Below are positions 677-7,024 of a stretch of DNA of 32,000 nucleotides, in pieces. Where the stretch lies: assembly GCF_000260965.1 (NCBI RefSeq), contig NC_017856.1:960001-992000 (forward strand), given 5' to 3'. Within the stretch, counting starts at the first letter, position 1, and each line of letters begins with the position of its first letter. The notes under the pieces were generated by a model. The model ran no database searches and was not told the DNA's origin. It was given only the letters and a program-made list of their open reading frames with translations. The position numbers and the translations under genes are program-made. The DNA comes from Methylophaga frappieri. Its GTDB lineage: Bacteria > Pseudomonadota > Gammaproteobacteria > Nitrosococcales > Methylophagaceae.

Positions 677-1465
677 TCAGTCCGTAGTCGGTTTTGAGGC
701 TCTTTTCCGCGGGGCCGAAGAAGGCAAAGACGGCAAGCACTCAAACAAGCGTTCTGCATAGACGAACCCCATCCGTCTGACCGCGCCCTGATCGAAATAC
801 AGCAGCCAAGCGGCAAGTAATGCCAGCGAAATGAGCAGTGTCAAGCCTGCGGCAAGCCCCGGATCGGCAAGGTGCTCTAGGTTAAAATGAGGAGGTACTA
901 CCTGCAGAATCTTTGCAATCAGCAATCCGTAGACGATGCCCAGGAGGCACGACACGATGCCGGCAGGCTTCATTGCCAGCATATTGCGGTGAAATCCGTA
1001 GGCGATGTTCTCTTTCAGCAAGAGCTGCTTGTTGGAACGCGTGAGTTCGCGAAGCCGCTTTGTGGCGCCAACGTAGATGTCGTCTGCCTTGTCAGGGCTT
1101 GCTGATTCTTCTTCTGCCGTTGGCATGGCGATGCCCAGCTTGGCCGTGATCGCCGTGTGGTAGCGCTGCTTGCTGACACCATCGAGAAACTTGTCGCGAT
1201 GGCGTAACGCGATGGTTGTCGGCATACCGCCCCACCTTGCAACCAGGATCTCTTCAAGCTTCTTCCCGCGCCCGCGAGCTACGCTCGCAAGCGCATAAAT
1301 GGCACCGCAGCCACCAAGCAAGCCGATCACGCCTGTAAGTACCGGGTGCTTTGCGCCGTAGACGCACAACAAAGGAACGAGCAGCGGTAACGCTACAAGA
1401 AGTCCTGGGATTACGCGCGCCTTGCGCTCATAGGGGTCTTTGACCAGTTCAAAAATAGTTGTCAT
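677..1465 (-). CDS. predicted 4-TM membrane protein of unknown function, co-operonic with the WYL regulator
   Basis: 262-aa ORF. Two hydrophobic helices lie at each end (LLVALPLLVPLLCVYGA, VLTGVIGLLGGCGAIYALA; IVSCLLGIVYGLLIAKIL, LAAGLTLLISLALLAAWLLYF) around a soluble core of about 100 aa. Its start codon lies 6 nt downstream of the WYL gene stop on the same strand. Confidence 0.7.
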   Translation of the reverse strand: MTTIFELVKDPYERKARVIPGLLVALPLLVPLLCVYGAKHPVLTGVIGLLGGCGAIYALASVARGRGKKLEEILVARWGGMPTTIALRHRDKFLDGVSKQRYHTAITAKLGIAMPTAEEESASPDKADDIYVGATKRLRELTRSNKQLLLKENIAYGFHRNMLAMKPAGIVSCLLGIVYGLLIAKILQVVPPHFNLEHLADPGLAAGLTLLISLALLAAWLLYFDQGAVRRMGFVYAERLFECLPSLPSSAPRKRASKPTTD

Positions 1466-1471
1466 GGGCGT

Positions 1472-2374
1472 TCAGCTTTGGGCCGACAAGGCATCAATAT
1501 AGGGTTGAATTTCATCGCGGTTCTTTAAAGTGATCTGCTGCGCGAGAGGGTCGGGTGCTTCCTTGGTATGCAAGCCCAAACGCCTCAGCGTGTAATACAA
1601 AAACGCTTGGCGGCATGGAAGTTTGACCTGTCCGTCTTCCATTCCATAGTCCAACTCCAGGACTCGTTTCTTGGCAGCGGGCAAATCGGGGTGCGGTGCA
1701 AGCACCAGCGTCAAGAGAGTTTGCCAGTGCGAATCTTGGCTGGCGTCCACTTGGCTCGCTTCGAAGCCGTCGATGCGCAGGATTCGGGCGAGGACGAAAT
1801 CACTGAAGCGCTGGCGTTTGTGGCAAAACGCGCGCATGTGCCAGCGAAAACCGTCATTACCAAGGGCGTGGGGAGACAGCAGACGAACCGATTCGTCCAT
1901 GGACGTCATGGACTGGTAGCTCACCCAAATGGCTTCCTGCTGCCGAATTGCCCGGACCACTGCTTCGACGGTCTGTTCATTGATCGTGCGCCAGGGGGAC
2001 GGCGCCCAATCTGCCTCAAGTGCTGAGCCGATAAAGCTGGCCGCAGGCTCGATGACTCCCATCTTGGTGGCCAGCAGCTCCGCTAGATAGTGTTGCGCCG
2101 AACTTCGTTGGTAAAGCGGGTGAAAACTCGGCGCTGCCGTGTAGGTCTTGGAACTGCGGTCGTAAGTTAGGTTGCTCGGCGCCAACTCCGTGTACTTGGC
2201 AATGTCCAGTGACGCCTGGGGAACCGATATGCCGAAGTGCTCAGTGAGATCCATTCGATTAATGTGCCGTTCCCAGCGCAAACGGAAATCGATGAATTGA
2301 AGTCTGCTTTCCAACCCCCAACTTAGCCCTTTGGGCTCAGCAGGATTGGCGGCAGTGACAGAGGGCTCTTGCAT
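1472..2374 (-). CDS. WYL-domain transcriptional regulator (wHTH + WYL; CapW/BrxR-like architecture)
   Basis: 300-aa ORF. N-terminal HTH-like segment DLTEHFGISVPQASLDIAKY. Central WYL-like segment IWVSYQS..VRLLSPHALGNDGFRWHMRAFCHKRQRFSDFVLARILRI. Divergent from the MBL/E2-E1-JAB operon across 88 bp. Confidence 0.75.
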   Translation of the reverse strand: MQEPSVTAANPAEPKGLSWGLESRLQFIDFRLRWERHINRMDLTEHFGISVPQASLDIAKYTELAPSNLTYDRSSKTYTAAPSFHPLYQRSSAQHYLAELLATKMGVIEPAASFIGSALEADWAPSPWRTINEQTVEAVVRAIRQQEAIWVSYQSMTSMDESVRLLSPHALGNDGFRWHMRAFCHKRQRFSDFVLARILRIDGFEASQVDASQDSHWQTLLTLVLAPHPDLPAAKKRVLELDYGMEDGQVKLPCRQAFLYYTLRRLGLHTKEAPDPLAQQITLKNRDEIQPYIDALSAQS

Positions 2375-5908: not shown

Positions 5909-5953
5909 AGGCAAAGCCGCCGGCACTTTCTTGGCATAAAACGAAAGGGATGT

Positions 5954-7024
5954 ATGGCTGACTACTTCGAGATCGATTTTCTTGGCGTCGAAACAGCGAA
6001 AAGCGGGGATGCAATCACGCTACGCTATTCGGTGAATGGCACAGAGGGCGTGCACGTCGTTGACGGTGGGTATCTGGATACGGGAGATCAGCTCGTCGAG
6101 CACCTGAAGACGTACTATGGAACAACAGTCATCGACCATGTGATCCTCACACACCCCGATCGCGATCACGCCAATGGGCTGCGAAAAGTCCTGGAGCAAT
6201 GCACAGTCAAAAATCTCTGGATCAACAGGCCGTGGATCTATGCAGATCAGTTGATTGATCGATTCGAGACCTATGAATCAGTTGAAGCACTGAGACGGAA
6301 ATTGCGCTCCATCTACGATGCCACGGCAATTCTTGAGGATCTTGCGGTTGAGAAGGGAATTCCAATCCATGCCCCTCTTCAGGGGCAGAACATCGGTCCC
6401 TTCATGGTGATGGCACCCACACTAGATCGCTACTTCGACCTGATCGTGGACTCCGCGAAGACACCGGAAGCTGTTGAAGAAAGTGCTTTGGATAGCGCGC
6501 TGAGCAGCATATTCCGGGTGGTGAAGGCCGCGACCGCCTACATCAAGTCCCTGTGGGGCGAGGAATATTTTCCGCCGGAGCCTACCAGCCGTGAAAATGA
6601 AATGAGTGTGGTCCAGTCGGCTGTTCTGAACGGTCATCGTGTCATGCTTACTGGCGATGCCGGGCGTGAAGCGCTGCAAGAGGTTATTGACTACGCGCCT
6701 TTTGCCGGACTCGCGTTGCCAGGCATTCGGTATTTCCAGGTGCCTCATCATGGCGGGCGACACAATGTCTCGACTGAAATTCTGGATCAACTGGTTGGTC
6801 CACGATTGGACAGCATGCCGGACAAGCATACCTGGAATGCCATTTGCAGTTCTGCCAAAGCCGATGAGGATCACCCGCGGAAGTCCGTAATTCGCGCTGT
6901 ATTGCACCGGGGTGGGCACTGGGCGGCAACCGAAAGCAAGAATCTCCGCATTGGGGCGGGCATTACCCGCGATGGCTGGGTATCAATTCCTCAAGCAGAG
7001 TACCCCGAAGAGCAAGAGAGTTGA
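5954..7024 (+). CDS. MBL-fold metallo-hydrolase, ComEC/Rec2-related type (paralog 2)
   Basis: 356-aa ORF. FEIDFLGVETAKSGDAITL, LTHPDRDH (6152-6169), LTGDAG, FQVPHHGGRHN. Lies 45 nt after the fusion gene, with a purine-rich RBS (aaaggga) before the ATG. Confidence 0.85.
   Translation: MADYFEIDFLGVETAKSGDAITLRYSVNGTEGVHVVDGGYLDTGDQLVEHLKTYYGTTVIDHVILTHPDRDHANGLRKVLEQCTVKNLWINRPWIYADQLIDRFETYESVEALRRKLRSIYDATAILEDLAVEKGIPIHAPLQGQNIGPFMVMAPTLDRYFDLIVDSAKTPEAVEESALDSALSSIFRVVKAATAYIKSLWGEEYFPPEPTSRENEMSVVQSAVLNGHRVMLTGDAGREALQEVIDYAPFAGLALPGIRYFQVPHHGGRHNVSTEILDQLVGPRLDSMPDKHTWNAICSSAKADEDHPRKSVIRAVLHRGGHWAATESKNLRIGAGITRDGWVSIPQAEYPEEQES

What the first reader, a model, noticed from the sequence alone, without database searches (positions are those of the whole stretch)
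677..7024. WYL-regulator-linked MBL / E2-E1-JAB / MBL operon: candidate uncharacterised ubiquitin-like-conjugation conflict system with no cyclase and no Ubl gene
Seen in sequence:
- Three plus-strand genes (2463-7024) are packed tightly, with an ATGA overlap at 3653-3656 and then a 45-nt gap.
- They diverge from a wHTH-WYL regulator gene across an 88-bp AT-rich region.
- The middle gene encodes E2-, E1- and JAB-type catalytic signatures in one polypeptide.
- Both flanking genes encode ComEC-type MBL hydrolases (HPDQDH / HPDRDH plus PHH motifs).
- The locus sits in a lower-G+C cargo segment of a conjugative element.

Established knowledge:
- In type II CBASS, the E2-E1 fusion Cap2 and the JAB peptidase Cap3 control the CD-NTase by conjugating and deconjugating its C-terminus.
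- Bil/Bub operons use E1/E2/JAB with a Ubl.
- WYL regulators (CapW, BrxR) gate defence islands.

Here there is no CD-NTase, no recognisable effector of known CBASS types, and no Ubl ORF.

Inference: this is a distinct system in which the conjugation machinery acts on, or together with, the two MBL hydrolases, which could be nucleases. E1/E2/JAB operons linked to MBL genes may have been noted in comparative-genomic surveys. I know of no functional characterisation, but I cannot check.
Basis: partly seen in the sequence, partly recalled or inferred. Interest (0 to 1): 0.9.

Follow-up and report, generated by a model that had tools for sequence, protein, structure and literature searches.

The report
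Known 6A-MBL phage defence locus
This is an intact copy of the already named "6A-MBL" anti-phage system, in which a ubiquitin-type conjugating enzyme sits next to a nuclease-like protein under a CapW-type repressor; the one less ordinary point is that it is flanked by the two halves of a second, uncharacterised gene pair.

Summary
All ORFs, the ATGA overlap, the 45-nt and 88-bp gaps, the E2/E1/JAB and metallo-β-lactamase (MBL) motifs and the ICE cargo context check out.

The reading "uncharacterised system" is not correct. The MBL plus E2-E1-JAB pair was described in 2006 (Iyer et al., Table 1 row 6a). It is now the named anti-phage system 6A-MBL (van den Berg et al. 2024). NCBIfam equivalog models match at 441 and 556 bits (cut-offs 220 and 320). 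The regulator is a full-length CapW homologue.

New support for the mechanism:
- Only the upstream MBL carries a disordered tail ending in a conserved P-M-P-H-Gly, followed by 0-2 residues.
- In 78 diverse relatives, 58 end in Gly or Ala. This is the signature of a Cap2 substrate.
- The downstream MBL ends in acidic residues and is present in only 6 of 19 lineages.

The downstream MBL belongs to another family (PADLOC PDC-M48B). Elsewhere that family forms a two-gene module with a 4-TM protein. This 4-TM protein is homologous to the 262-aa ORF at the other end of the locus (677-1465). The 4-TM gene accompanies three deeply diverged 6A-MBL lineages and matches no family library.

Verdict: a known system. 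The TM/second-MBL accessory is a modest lead.

The parts
677..1465 (-). 262-aa membrane protein ('TM262'). Four predicted TM helices (about aa 15-40, 41-63, 163-192, 199-229) and a roughly 100-aa helical central domain that is probably cytoplasmic. It lies 6 nt downstream of the capW-like gene. It is a conserved accessory of 6A-MBL loci and the usual operon partner of PDC-M48B-type MBL genes.
   Evidence: - ORF.
- Hydropathy.
- AF2 model: pLDDT 84, all-alpha.
- No Pfam, NCBIfam or PADLOC hit.
- No significant PDB fold match; best E 0.27.
- 53%, 44% and 37% identity (E 3e-89 to 8e-48) to the gene directly after stand-alone MBL2 genes.
- Present in 14 of 19 Cap2_3-baited lineages.
- Also present in the P. 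aeruginosa and L140 lineages.
1472..2374 (-). capW-type wHTH-WYL-WCX transcriptional repressor gene, divergent from the MBL operon.
   Evidence: - Pfam WYL, E 3e-12.
- Full-length match to solved CapW structures: 7TB5 E 1.7e-71, 7TB6 E 7e-70, 9C5G E 5e-52; BrxR 7T8K E 2e-41.
- Present in 18 of 19 lineages.
2375..2462 (.). 88-bp divergent control region.
- A -35-like TAGACG (2393-2398), a 17-nt spacer and TACATT (2416-2421) face the MBL operon.
- A -35 TAGACG and -10 TATAGT lie on the minus strand (2450-2422) for capW.
- The candidate CapW operator is ACGGATA-N7-TAGTCGT at 2395-2415.
- A 17-nt direct repeat lies at 2385-2418.
   Evidence: - Sequence.
- Repeats.
- Minus-strand promoter-like site.
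- Alignment of orthologous spacers shows perfect, covarying palindromes at the same position: L047 ACGGATA/TATCCGT and L054 ACGCGTA/TACGCGT.
- In the window itself the palindrome is only 5/7 and is not significant on its own.
2463..3656 (+). 6A-MBL 'enzyme': a 397-aa ComEC-like MBL-fold protein and predicted nuclease effector. Motifs are HPDQDH at aa 73-78 and PHH at aa 272-274. It has a disordered C-terminal tail (aa 376-397, nt 3588-3653) ending P-M-P-H-G395-A-S. This is the proposed conjugated substrate.
   Evidence: - NCBIfam NF058524: 441 bits against a cut-off of 220.
- AF2 model: pLDDT 89, tail below 50.
- Best fold match: ComEC MBL domain 9ic4, E 4e-13.
- C-terminal Gly conservation.
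- Invariant H73, D77, H78, D244, H273 and H274 in 47 diverse relatives.
3653..5908 (+). 6A-MBL Cap2_3: a 751-aa fusion.
- E2 domain: aa 5-165 (nt 3665-4147), Cys101.
- E1 adenylation domain: Pfam ThiF match aa 363-468 (nt 4739-5056); the candidate E1 Cys549 lies downstream of that match.
- JAB/JAMM peptidase: aa 626-739 (nt 5528-5869), with E642, H706, H708 and D718.
   Evidence: - Pfam.
- NCBIfam NF058523: 556 bits against a cut-off of 320.
- The catalytic residues are invariant in 14 relatives down to 57% identity.
- The E2 Cys motif, the JAB HxH motif and the nucleotide-binding loop are kept in most of about 114 homologues.
- The profile hits Cap2 7TO3/7TSQ and a JAB peptidase 9ILD in the PDB.
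5954..7024 (+). Second MBL ('MBL2'): 356 aa, ComEC-like, HPDRDH at aa 67-72, PHHG at aa 264, acidic C-terminus ...YPEEQES. It is a member of the PADLOC candidate family PDC-M48B, not of the 6A-MBL enzyme family. It is an accessory gene in this ICE/plasmid lineage.
   Evidence: - PADLOC PDLC04676: E 2.6e-154, full length.
- NF058524: only 29 bits.
- C-termini of 118 relatives are acidic; Gly in 3 of 118.
- Present in 6 of 19 lineages.
- Stand-alone MBL2+TM modules elsewhere.

Best explanation
The locus is a complete 6A-MBL anti-phage defence system carried as cargo on a Tn4371-like ICE.

Shown by homology:
- a CapW-family repressor gene;
- a divergent operon encoding a ComEC-like MBL-fold protein (MBL1);
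- a Cap2-Cap3 fusion (E2, E1 and JAB in one chain).

Proposed mechanism (inferred from type II CBASS and from the sequence patterns found here):
1. CapW holds both divergent promoters off through a palindrome between the -35 and -10 elements. It releases them when its WYL domain binds single-stranded DNA produced during infection or DNA damage.
2. MBL1 takes the place of the CD-NTase as the 'ubiquitin-like' substrate. The JAB domain trims the two residues after Gly395.
3. The E1 domain adenylates Gly395. MBL1 then passes as a thioester via the E1 Cys (probably C549) and E2 Cys101 to lysines of unknown targets.
4. Conjugation primes or localises the MBL1 nuclease. The JAB domain also reverses conjugation.
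5. MBL1 most likely degrades nucleic acid, as the ComEC MBL domain does.

The two outer genes are TM262 (co-transcribed with capW) and MBL2 (co-transcribed with Cap2_3). Together they are the two halves of a separate MBL+TM module that has been recruited around the core and placed under the same control region. MBL2 is not a conjugation substrate.
For: Membership in 6A-MBL:
- NCBIfam equivalogs are passed well above their cut-offs.
- The architecture is identical to Iyer et al. 2006, row 6a.
- The system is named and cited as an anti-phage and anti-jumbo-phage defence.
- MBL1-Cap2_3 is conserved in 19 of 19 lineages and WYL in 18 of 19, down to 44% identity.

MBL1 as the substrate:
- Orthologues end in P-[ML]-P-H-G, either exactly or with 2 more residues.
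- The P. aeruginosa-type lineage ends in PRAG with 0-4 more residues.
- Of 78 full-length representatives (no two more than 50% identical), 43 end in Gly, 15 end in Ala and 16 have Gly within 1-6 residues of the end.
- The control MBL2 family ends in Gly in 3 of 118.
- The tail is disordered in a confident model.
- The same Gly/Ala rule marks cGAS proteins only in Cap2/Cap3 operons. There, Cap3 cleaves C-terminal extensions and conjugates (Jenson 2023).
- A Corbett-lab preprint lists 'MBL pathways' beside type II CBASS and Pycsar as pathways in which a fused E2-E1 conjugates the signalling enzyme.

Other points:
- All catalytic residues of Cap2_3 are conserved.
- The nuclease inference rests on the ComEC MBL domain being the best fold match and on hits to the LmuA, Avs1a and RT-associated MBL defence models.
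- For CapW: E 1.7e-71 to solved CapW. CapW binds 19-24-bp palindromes over the -10 element and is released by ssDNA. Covarying palindromes sit at the homologous position.
- For the accessory module.
- The whole five-gene block also lies on 12 Acinetobacter plasmids at 90% identity.
Against: - I could not read the primary 6A-MBL paper. I therefore do not know which genes were cloned, which phages were tested, or whether conjugation of the MBL was shown.
- No biochemical evidence for MBL conjugation or nuclease activity was available to me. No structure of this family is in the PDB.
- The window's own operator palindrome is only 5/7 and is not significant alone.
- The window's Cap2_3 is only about 27% identical, over its E1-JAB part, to the P. 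aeruginosa version. The anti-jumbo-phage phenotype may not transfer.
- The TM survey beyond the Cap2_3-baited loci used TM as bait, so it is biased toward finding TM.
Confidence: 0.85

Rival explanations
1. One reading: a distinct three-gene system (MBL / E2-E1-JAB / MBL) in which the conjugation machinery acts on both MBL hydrolases.
For: - MBL2 lies 45 nt downstream of Cap2_3 on the same strand.
- It travels with the core in the large ICE/plasmid clade: 69 loci in one 90% cluster, plus 12 plasmids.
- Both MBLs are ComEC-like.
Against: - MBL2 ends ...YPEEQES, and its family ends in Gly in 3 of 118 members. MBL1's family ends in Gly or Ala in 58 of 78.
- MBL2 is absent from 13 of 19 lineages that keep WYL-MBL1-Cap2_3.
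- MBL2 scores 29 bits on the 6A-MBL enzyme model, against a cut-off of 220.
- MBL2-family genes occur without any Cap2_3, paired with a TM262 homologue.
Confidence: 0.07
2. Two independent defence systems that merely sit together in a defence island: 6A-MBL (capW, MBL1, Cap2_3) and an MBL2+TM module. There is no functional coupling between them.
For: - Stand-alone MBL2+TM modules lie in prophage, viral and island contexts: next to Gabija-like genes in L063, at an integrase hotspot in L064, and on IMG/VR contigs L067-L070.
- Core-only 6A-MBL loci exist: L047, L052, L054, L055, L060.
- Defence systems cluster in general.
Against: - Here the module is split. TM is 6 nt behind capW and MBL2 is 45 nt behind Cap2_3, so each half is transcribed from the shared CapW-controlled region.
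- TM stays with 6A-MBL in 7 or more lineages that have no second MBL.
- TM, with or without a second MBL, recurs next to three deeply diverged 6A-MBL lineages in at least five gene orders.
- TM copies next to 6A-MBL stay 62-100% identical to the window's copy while MBL1 and Cap2_3 diverge to 25-28%.
Confidence: 0.3
3. Not an immune system. It would instead be a housekeeping or ICE function such as DNA uptake (public records name the MBL2 family 'ComEC/Rec2 family competence protein') or ThiF/MoeB-type sulfur transfer (public records name the 751-aa family 'ThiF family adenylyltransferase').
For: - These names appear in public records.
- Weak NCBIfam hits to ThiF, MoeB and ComEC_Rec2.
Against: - All such hits are far below the curated cut-offs: ThiF 34.5 against 275, ComEC_Rec2 31 against 190.
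- The MBL proteins carry only the MBL domain. They lack the ComEC channel and OB domains.
- The E1 domain is fused to E2 and JAB domains.
- No ThiS or MoaD gene is present.
- The gene neighbourhoods are defence islands.
- The locus is lower-G+C cargo that also occurs on plasmids.
Confidence: 0.02

Closest known systems
6A-MBL anti-phage system (operon type 6a of Iyer, Burroughs & Aravind 2006; named and tested by van den Berg et al. 2024, Cell Host Microbe 32:1427)
   Same: - An E2-E1-JAB triple-module protein sits next to a specialised MBL gene, with no Ubl and no cyclase.
- Both proteins pass the NCBIfam equivalog cut-offs.
- The system lies on mobile elements.
   Different: - This copy belongs to a lineage about 27% (Cap2_3) and 55% (MBL1) identical to the P. 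aeruginosa copy I recovered.
- It is flanked by a TM gene and a second MBL of another family. NCBIfam's two 6A-MBL models do not cover these.
- Whether the published description includes them is unknown to me.
Type II CBASS (CD-NTase + Cap2 + Cap3 + effector; Ledvina 2023, Jenson 2023)
   Same: - A Cap2-like E2-E1 and a Cap3-like JAB.
- A substrate with a conserved C-terminal Gly/Ala on a flexible tail.
- A divergent CapW repressor.
   Different: - There is no CD-NTase and no cyclic-nucleotide-activated effector.
- Cap2 and Cap3 are fused.
- The conjugated protein is itself a predicted hydrolase, so signal and effector may be one protein.
Bil (types I/II) and Bub ubiquitin-like conjugation defence operons
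   Same: E1, E2 and JAB-type chemistry used in phage defence.
   Different: - Bil and Bub encode a dedicated Ubl gene; none is present here.
- In Bil the E1 and E2 are separate proteins; here they are fused in one chain.
CapW / BrxR wHTH-WYL-WCX repressors
   Same: - Full-length homology to solved CapW (E 1.7e-71).
- Divergent placement.
- A palindrome at the promoter in orthologous loci.
   Different: - It controls an MBL operon and a TM gene rather than CBASS or BREX.
- The operator in this window is degenerate (5/7).
PADLOC candidate system PDC-M48, and the defence-associated ComEC-like MBLs (Lamassu LmuA-MBL, Avs1a, DRT RT-associated MBL)
   Same: - MBL2 is a full-length PDC-M48B match (E 2.6e-154).
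- Both MBLs hit the LmuA, RTasMBL and Avs1a models.
   Different: - No PDC-M48A match was found in the window or next to MBL2 homologues.
- The recurrent partner is the TM262 family, which matches no PADLOC model.

Membership tests
6A-MBL system | A single polypeptide with E2, E1 (ThiF-like) and JAB domains in that order | tested here: met
   - Pfam Prok-E2_A 5e-56, ThiF 4e-11, Prok-JAB 1e-10, in order.
- NF058523: 556 bits against a cut-off of 320.
6A-MBL system | An adjacent gene for the specialised MBL-fold protein | tested here: met
   - NF058524: 441 bits against a cut-off of 220.
- 4-nt ATGA overlap with the Cap2_3 gene.
- The pair is conserved in 19 of 19 lineages.
6A-MBL system | Catalytic residues intact (E2 Cys, E1 nucleotide loop and Cys, JAMM E...HxH...D, MBL metal ligands) | tested here: met
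   - C101, GCGSVGSK at 367, C549, E642, H706/H708 and D718 are invariant.
- H73, D77, H78, D244, H273 and H274 are invariant in the MBL1 family.
6A-MBL system | Protects against phage | not testable with these tools
   Known only from citations of van den Berg 2024. The paper itself is not held.
Type II CBASS | A CD-NTase (cGAS/DncV-like) gene | tested here: not met
   No such ORF or profile hit in 1-8.3 kb. The genes are packed with gaps of 6, 88, -4 and 45 nt.
Type II CBASS | Cap2-like E2-E1 and Cap3-like JAB | tested here: met
   - PADLOC E1-E2 and JAB (CBASS) models, E 1e-19 to 1e-14.
- The profile hits Cap2 7TO3/7TSQ.
Type II CBASS | Substrate with a conserved C-terminal Gly/Ala | tested here: met
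   Met by MBL1, not by a CD-NTase: 58 of 78 representatives end in Gly or Ala, against 9 of 118 in the MBL2 control family. The rule is from Jenson 2023.
Bil / Bub operons | A separate ubiquitin-like (beta-grasp) protein gene | tested here: not met
   No additional ORF fits in the locus. No Ubl profile hit.
CapW family repressor | wHTH-WYL-WCX architecture homologous to CapW | tested here: met
   7TB5 E 1.7e-71 over aa 14-293; 7TB6 E 7e-70.
CapW family repressor | A palindromic operator of about 20 bp overlapping the promoter -10 element | tested here: inconclusive
   - In the window, ACGGATA-N7-TAGTCGT at 2395-2415 is 5/7; this level is reached in about 58% of shuffles.
- Orthologous spacers carry 7/7 covarying palindromes at the same position, reached in 1 to 3 of 500 shuffles.
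PADLOC PDC-M48 | Both components A and B present | tested here: not met
   B is met by MBL2 (E 2.6e-154). No PDC-M48A hit for any neighbour, here or in related loci.
ComEC/Rec2 competence protein | Competence channel (TM) domain plus MBL domain; passes TIGR00361 | tested here: not met
   Only the MBL domain is present. TIGR00361 scores 31 bits against a cut-off of 190. The proteins are 356 and 397 aa.

The most novel reading that the evidence does not exclude
The TM262-family membrane protein, with or without a PDC-M48B-type second MBL, is a functional but so far unannotated component of 6A-MBL systems. It could be the membrane anchor, activator or conjugation target of the MBL nuclease. In addition, 'MBL + TM262-family' on its own may be an uncharacterised two-gene defence system from which 6A-MBL evolved, by adding a Gly-ended tail and a Cap2-Cap3 enzyme.
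Probability: 0.4. Interest if true: 0.55.

Novelty: already known. Interest (0 to 1): 0.3.

Why it matters
The finding as stated does not uncover a new system. It rediscovers 6A-MBL from raw sequence.

What this check adds:
- There is family-wide sequence evidence that the MBL protein itself is the ubiquitin-like substrate: a disordered tail ending in [HY]-Gly/Ala, sometimes with a short removable extension. This turns the inferred mechanism into simple, testable mutants (ΔG395, C101A, C549A, H706A).
- The locus is wider than the two annotated genes. A membrane protein that matches none of the family libraries searched, and often a second ComEC-like MBL, ride with three diverged 6A-MBL lineages, including the P. 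aeruginosa one.
- If the cloned and tested systems lacked these genes, or included them unnoticed, this affects how the published phenotypes are read.

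Tried and rejected
- Reading the primary 6A-MBL paper by DOI and by PubMed id: not held. Three further literature searches found no mechanistic study.
- 'PDC-M48' in the literature: no paper.
- Identifying PDC-M48A: I scanned TM262, its homologues and other neighbours of MBL2 genes against PADLOC and found no hit. I therefore cannot say that MBL2+TM equals PDC-M48.
- Single-sequence PDB searches with Cap2_3 and MBL1: no hits. Only the profile and the fold search gave relatives.
- Fold search with the TM262 model: nothing significant. 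The MotA/ExbB/TolQ chains at the top have E of 0.27 or worse and TM-scores of 0.3 or less, so I do not read them as homology.
- E. coli genomes: no copy.
- Rfam on the whole window: nothing.
- Terminator scan: no convincing terminators at the gene ends.
- The operator in the window taken alone: not significant. I keep it only as a candidate, on the strength of positional homology.
- Considered and rejected:
  - the upstream 178-aa ORF (63-599) and the DUF6685 gene (7175-8233) as parts of the system; both are present in only a minority of loci;
  - MBL2 as a second Cap2_3 substrate.

Full report
**1. Observation**

- 677-1465 (-) 262 aa
- 1472-2374 (-) 300 aa
- 2463-3656 (+) 397 aa
- 3653-5908 (+) 751 aa
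- 5954-7024 (+) 356 aa

The spacing details also hold: the ATGA overlap at 3653-3656, the 45-nt gap and the 88-bp AT-rich divergent spacer.

Profile searches confirm every domain call.
- The 300-aa protein has a WYL domain.
- The 751-aa protein has Prok-E2_A (5e-56), ThiF (4e-11) and Prok-JAB (1e-10), in that order.
- The 356-aa protein has an MBL domain.

The rest of the window is a Tn4371-like ICE. It carries RadC, DUF932, ParB_N, DUF736, ParA, an S26 peptidase, a relaxase with DUF3363 and TraG/VirD4. The locus lies in a stretch of 55-59% G+C against a 63-71% backbone.

**2. What it is**

NCBIfam names two of the proteins outright.
- The 397-aa protein matches NF058524, 'anti-phage 6A-MBL system MBL-fold protein' (441 bits, cut-off 220).
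- The 751-aa protein matches NF058523, 'anti-phage 6A-MBL system cap2_3 protein' (556 bits, cut-off 320).

'6a' is row 6a of Table 1 in Iyer, Burroughs & Aravind 2006. [quoted passage not shown] Three later papers refer to the system.
- A review cites van den Berg et al. 2024 for 6A-MBL among P. aeruginosa components whose anti-phage activity was confirmed experimentally.
- A 2025 preprint from the same group lists 6A-MBL among the known jumbo-phage defences.
- A Corbett-lab preprint, citing the same paper, groups 'MBL pathways' with type II CBASS and Pycsar as pathways in which a fused E2-E1 conjugates the signalling enzyme.

I could not obtain the primary paper. No structure of the family is in the PDB by sequence.

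The regulator is a full-length homologue of solved CapW structures (7TB5 E 1.7e-71, 7TB6 E 7e-70).

**3. Conservation**

A scan of one genome per species gave 61 loci. After clustering Cap2_3 at 90% identity there are 19 lineages, with the following presence (L058's TM is counted from the tblastn hit).

| Gene | Lineages with the gene |
|---|---|
| MBL1 | 19 of 19 |
| WYL regulator | 18 of 19 |
| 262-aa ORF (TM262) | 14 of 19 |
| Downstream MBL (MBL2) | 6 of 19 |

So the conserved unit is capW, MBL1 and Cap2_3, often with TM262.

One cluster of 69 loci, including this window, is a single promiscuous ICE cassette. It occurs in Stenotrophomonas, Achromobacter, Bordetella, Comamonas, Acinetobacter, Azospirillum and others. 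The whole five-gene block is also on 12 Acinetobacter plasmids at 90% identity. E. coli genomes have none.

**4. Which MBL is the substrate**

MBL1 orthologues end in a conserved P-[ML]-P-H-G. About a dozen stop exactly at the Gly. The others, including the window (…PMPHG-AS), add two variable residues. The P. aeruginosa-type lineage has PRAG with 0-4 further residues.

I then searched 1.84 billion representative proteins. 689 proteins match MBL1 at E ≤ 0.001; 78 of the 150 listed are full-length (no two more than 50% identical). Their C-termini are as follows.

| C-terminus | Count (of 78) |
|---|---|
| Ends in Gly (mostly [HY]G) | 43 |
| Ends in Ala (mostly YA) | 15 |
| Gly within 1-6 residues of the end | 16 |
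| Other | 4 |

As a control, the MBL2 family ends in acidic residues (EQEE, EQED and similar). Gly is last in 3 of 118.

A confident AF2 model (pLDDT 89) shows residues 376-397 as a disordered tail.

This is the same logic that identified cGAS as the Cap2 substrate. A C-terminal Gly/Ala is conserved only in operons with Cap2 and Cap3, and Cap3 can cut after that residue (Jenson 2023). I therefore infer that MBL1 is the conjugated protein and that the JAB domain both matures it and deconjugates it. This is inference from sequence; no assay was available to me.

The best fold match of MBL1 is the ComEC MBL domain (9ic4, E 4e-13, TM-score 0.71 on the target). It also hits the defence-associated MBL models LmuA, RTasMBL and Avs1a. 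A metal-dependent nuclease is the most likely activity.

**5. The second MBL and the overlooked ORF**

MBL2 is a full-length match to PADLOC's candidate PDC-M48B (E 2.6e-154). It scores only 29 bits on the 6A-MBL enzyme model. Its family is large: 2193 hits at E ≤ 1e-5.

Away from 6A-MBL, MBL2 genes are followed directly by a 250-280-aa gene.
- In Burkholderia glumae this lies at an integrase hotspot.
- In Xanthomonas arboricola it lies next to Gabija-like genes.
- The pair also occurs on IMG/VR viral contigs.

That partner is homologous to the window's 262-aa ORF at 677-1465 (53%, 44% and 37% identity; E 3e-89 to 8e-48).

TM262 has four predicted TM helices and a helical central domain with many invariant charged residues. 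By the positive-inside rule this domain is cytoplasmic, which is my inference. It matches nothing in Pfam, NCBIfam or PADLOC, and no PDB fold. All 120 listed of its 490 homologues are unnamed or 'hypothetical'.

In the window the MBL2+TM pair is split around the 6A-MBL core. TM262 sits 6 nt behind capW, and MBL2 sits 45 nt behind Cap2_3.

Other gene orders occur.
- In P. aeruginosa and relatives: Cap2_3 < MBL1 < | > WYL > TM > MBL (a 298-aa PDC-M48B member, E 2e-141).
- WYL < | > MBL1 > Cap2_3 > TM.
- MBL2 < TM < WYL < | > MBL1 > Cap2_3.
- Many loci have TM but no second MBL.

The P. aeruginosa and L140 versions are bona fide 6A-MBL by NCBIfam (Cap2_3 scores of 656 and 641 bits). TM copies beside 6A-MBL remain 62-100% identical to the window's copy even where MBL1 and Cap2_3 have fallen to 25-28%.

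I read this as recurrent recruitment of an MBL+TM module, probably with a functional link. Simple co-location in defence islands is not excluded. Loci L066-L151 were fetched with TM as bait and cannot be used for frequency estimates.

**6. Regulation**

CapW proteins bind 19-24-bp imperfect palindromes that overlap the -10 element. They are released by single-stranded DNA.

Aligned spacers from 18 lineages share a core, TAGACG-N17-TATAAT. It contains an internal 7-N7-7 palindrome that covaries: L047 has ACGGATA/TATCCGT and L054 has ACGCGTA/TACGCGT. Each is 7/7, reached in 1 and 3 of 500 shuffles respectively.

The window's version, ACGGATA-TAAAAAA-TAGTCGT at 2395-2415, is 5/7 and is not significant by itself. 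A promoter-like site for capW lies on the minus strand at 2450-2422. The operator assignment is therefore a candidate only.

**7. Verdict**

The claim that the system is uncharacterised is wrong, and so is the proposed three-gene unit.

The locus is a member of the known 6A-MBL system. The points beyond that are the C-terminal Gly signature and the TM/second-MBL accessory. Both give a worthwhile but modest lead.

Noticed in passing
window 7079-7188, 8318-8427, 15088-15197; 8468-8627 and 9245-9403: Intergenic direct repeats. A 110-nt element (89% identical copies) brackets the DUF6685 gene (7175-8233), with a weaker third copy at 15088. A roughly 160-nt element (88-98%) precedes both radC (8629-9141) and the 129-aa ORF at 9410-9799. 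There is no Rfam match. They may be shared promoter or 5'-UTR modules of ICE genes, or recombination scars of cargo insertion.
   Followed up: partly
window 7175-8233 (+): A 352-aa DUF6685 protein (PF20390, E 1e-67) lies directly after the defence locus. It travels with the locus in only some ICE and plasmid copies and is frameshifted in the Acinetobacter copies. Its function is unknown and it has no PADLOC hit.
   Followed up: partly
window 23272-28815: A second lower-G+C cargo patch lies between the relaxase (21106-23217) and TraG/VirD4 (29212-31326). It holds a TetR regulator, an unknown 488-aa protein, an APH-family phosphotransferase, an MFS transporter and a LysR regulator. It could be a resistance or catabolic cassette.
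   Followed up: no
L059 10001-10791; L010, L080, L086; L154/L155 3172-5397: Decayed copies of the system. Cap2_3 has an internal deletion of aa 221-701 in Parasulfuritortus. MBL2 is truncated to about 52 aa in three loci. Cap2_3 is split into a 140-aa E2 ORF and a 579-aa E1-JAB ORF in some P. aeruginosa assemblies.
   Followed up: no
L062 3701-7586 (Pseudomonas fluorescens): Two PDC-M48B-type MBL genes sit back to back beside a 6A-MBL locus. One is paired with a TM262 homologue (280 aa). The other is followed by an unrelated 160-aa membrane protein and a 116-aa protein. This suggests that the MBL's partner gene can be exchanged.
   Followed up: partly
window 63-599 (+): A 178-aa ORF with no family match. 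It is conserved at 85-98% upstream of the locus in a subset of ICE copies and partly in Acinetobacter, but is absent from most loci.
   Followed up: partly
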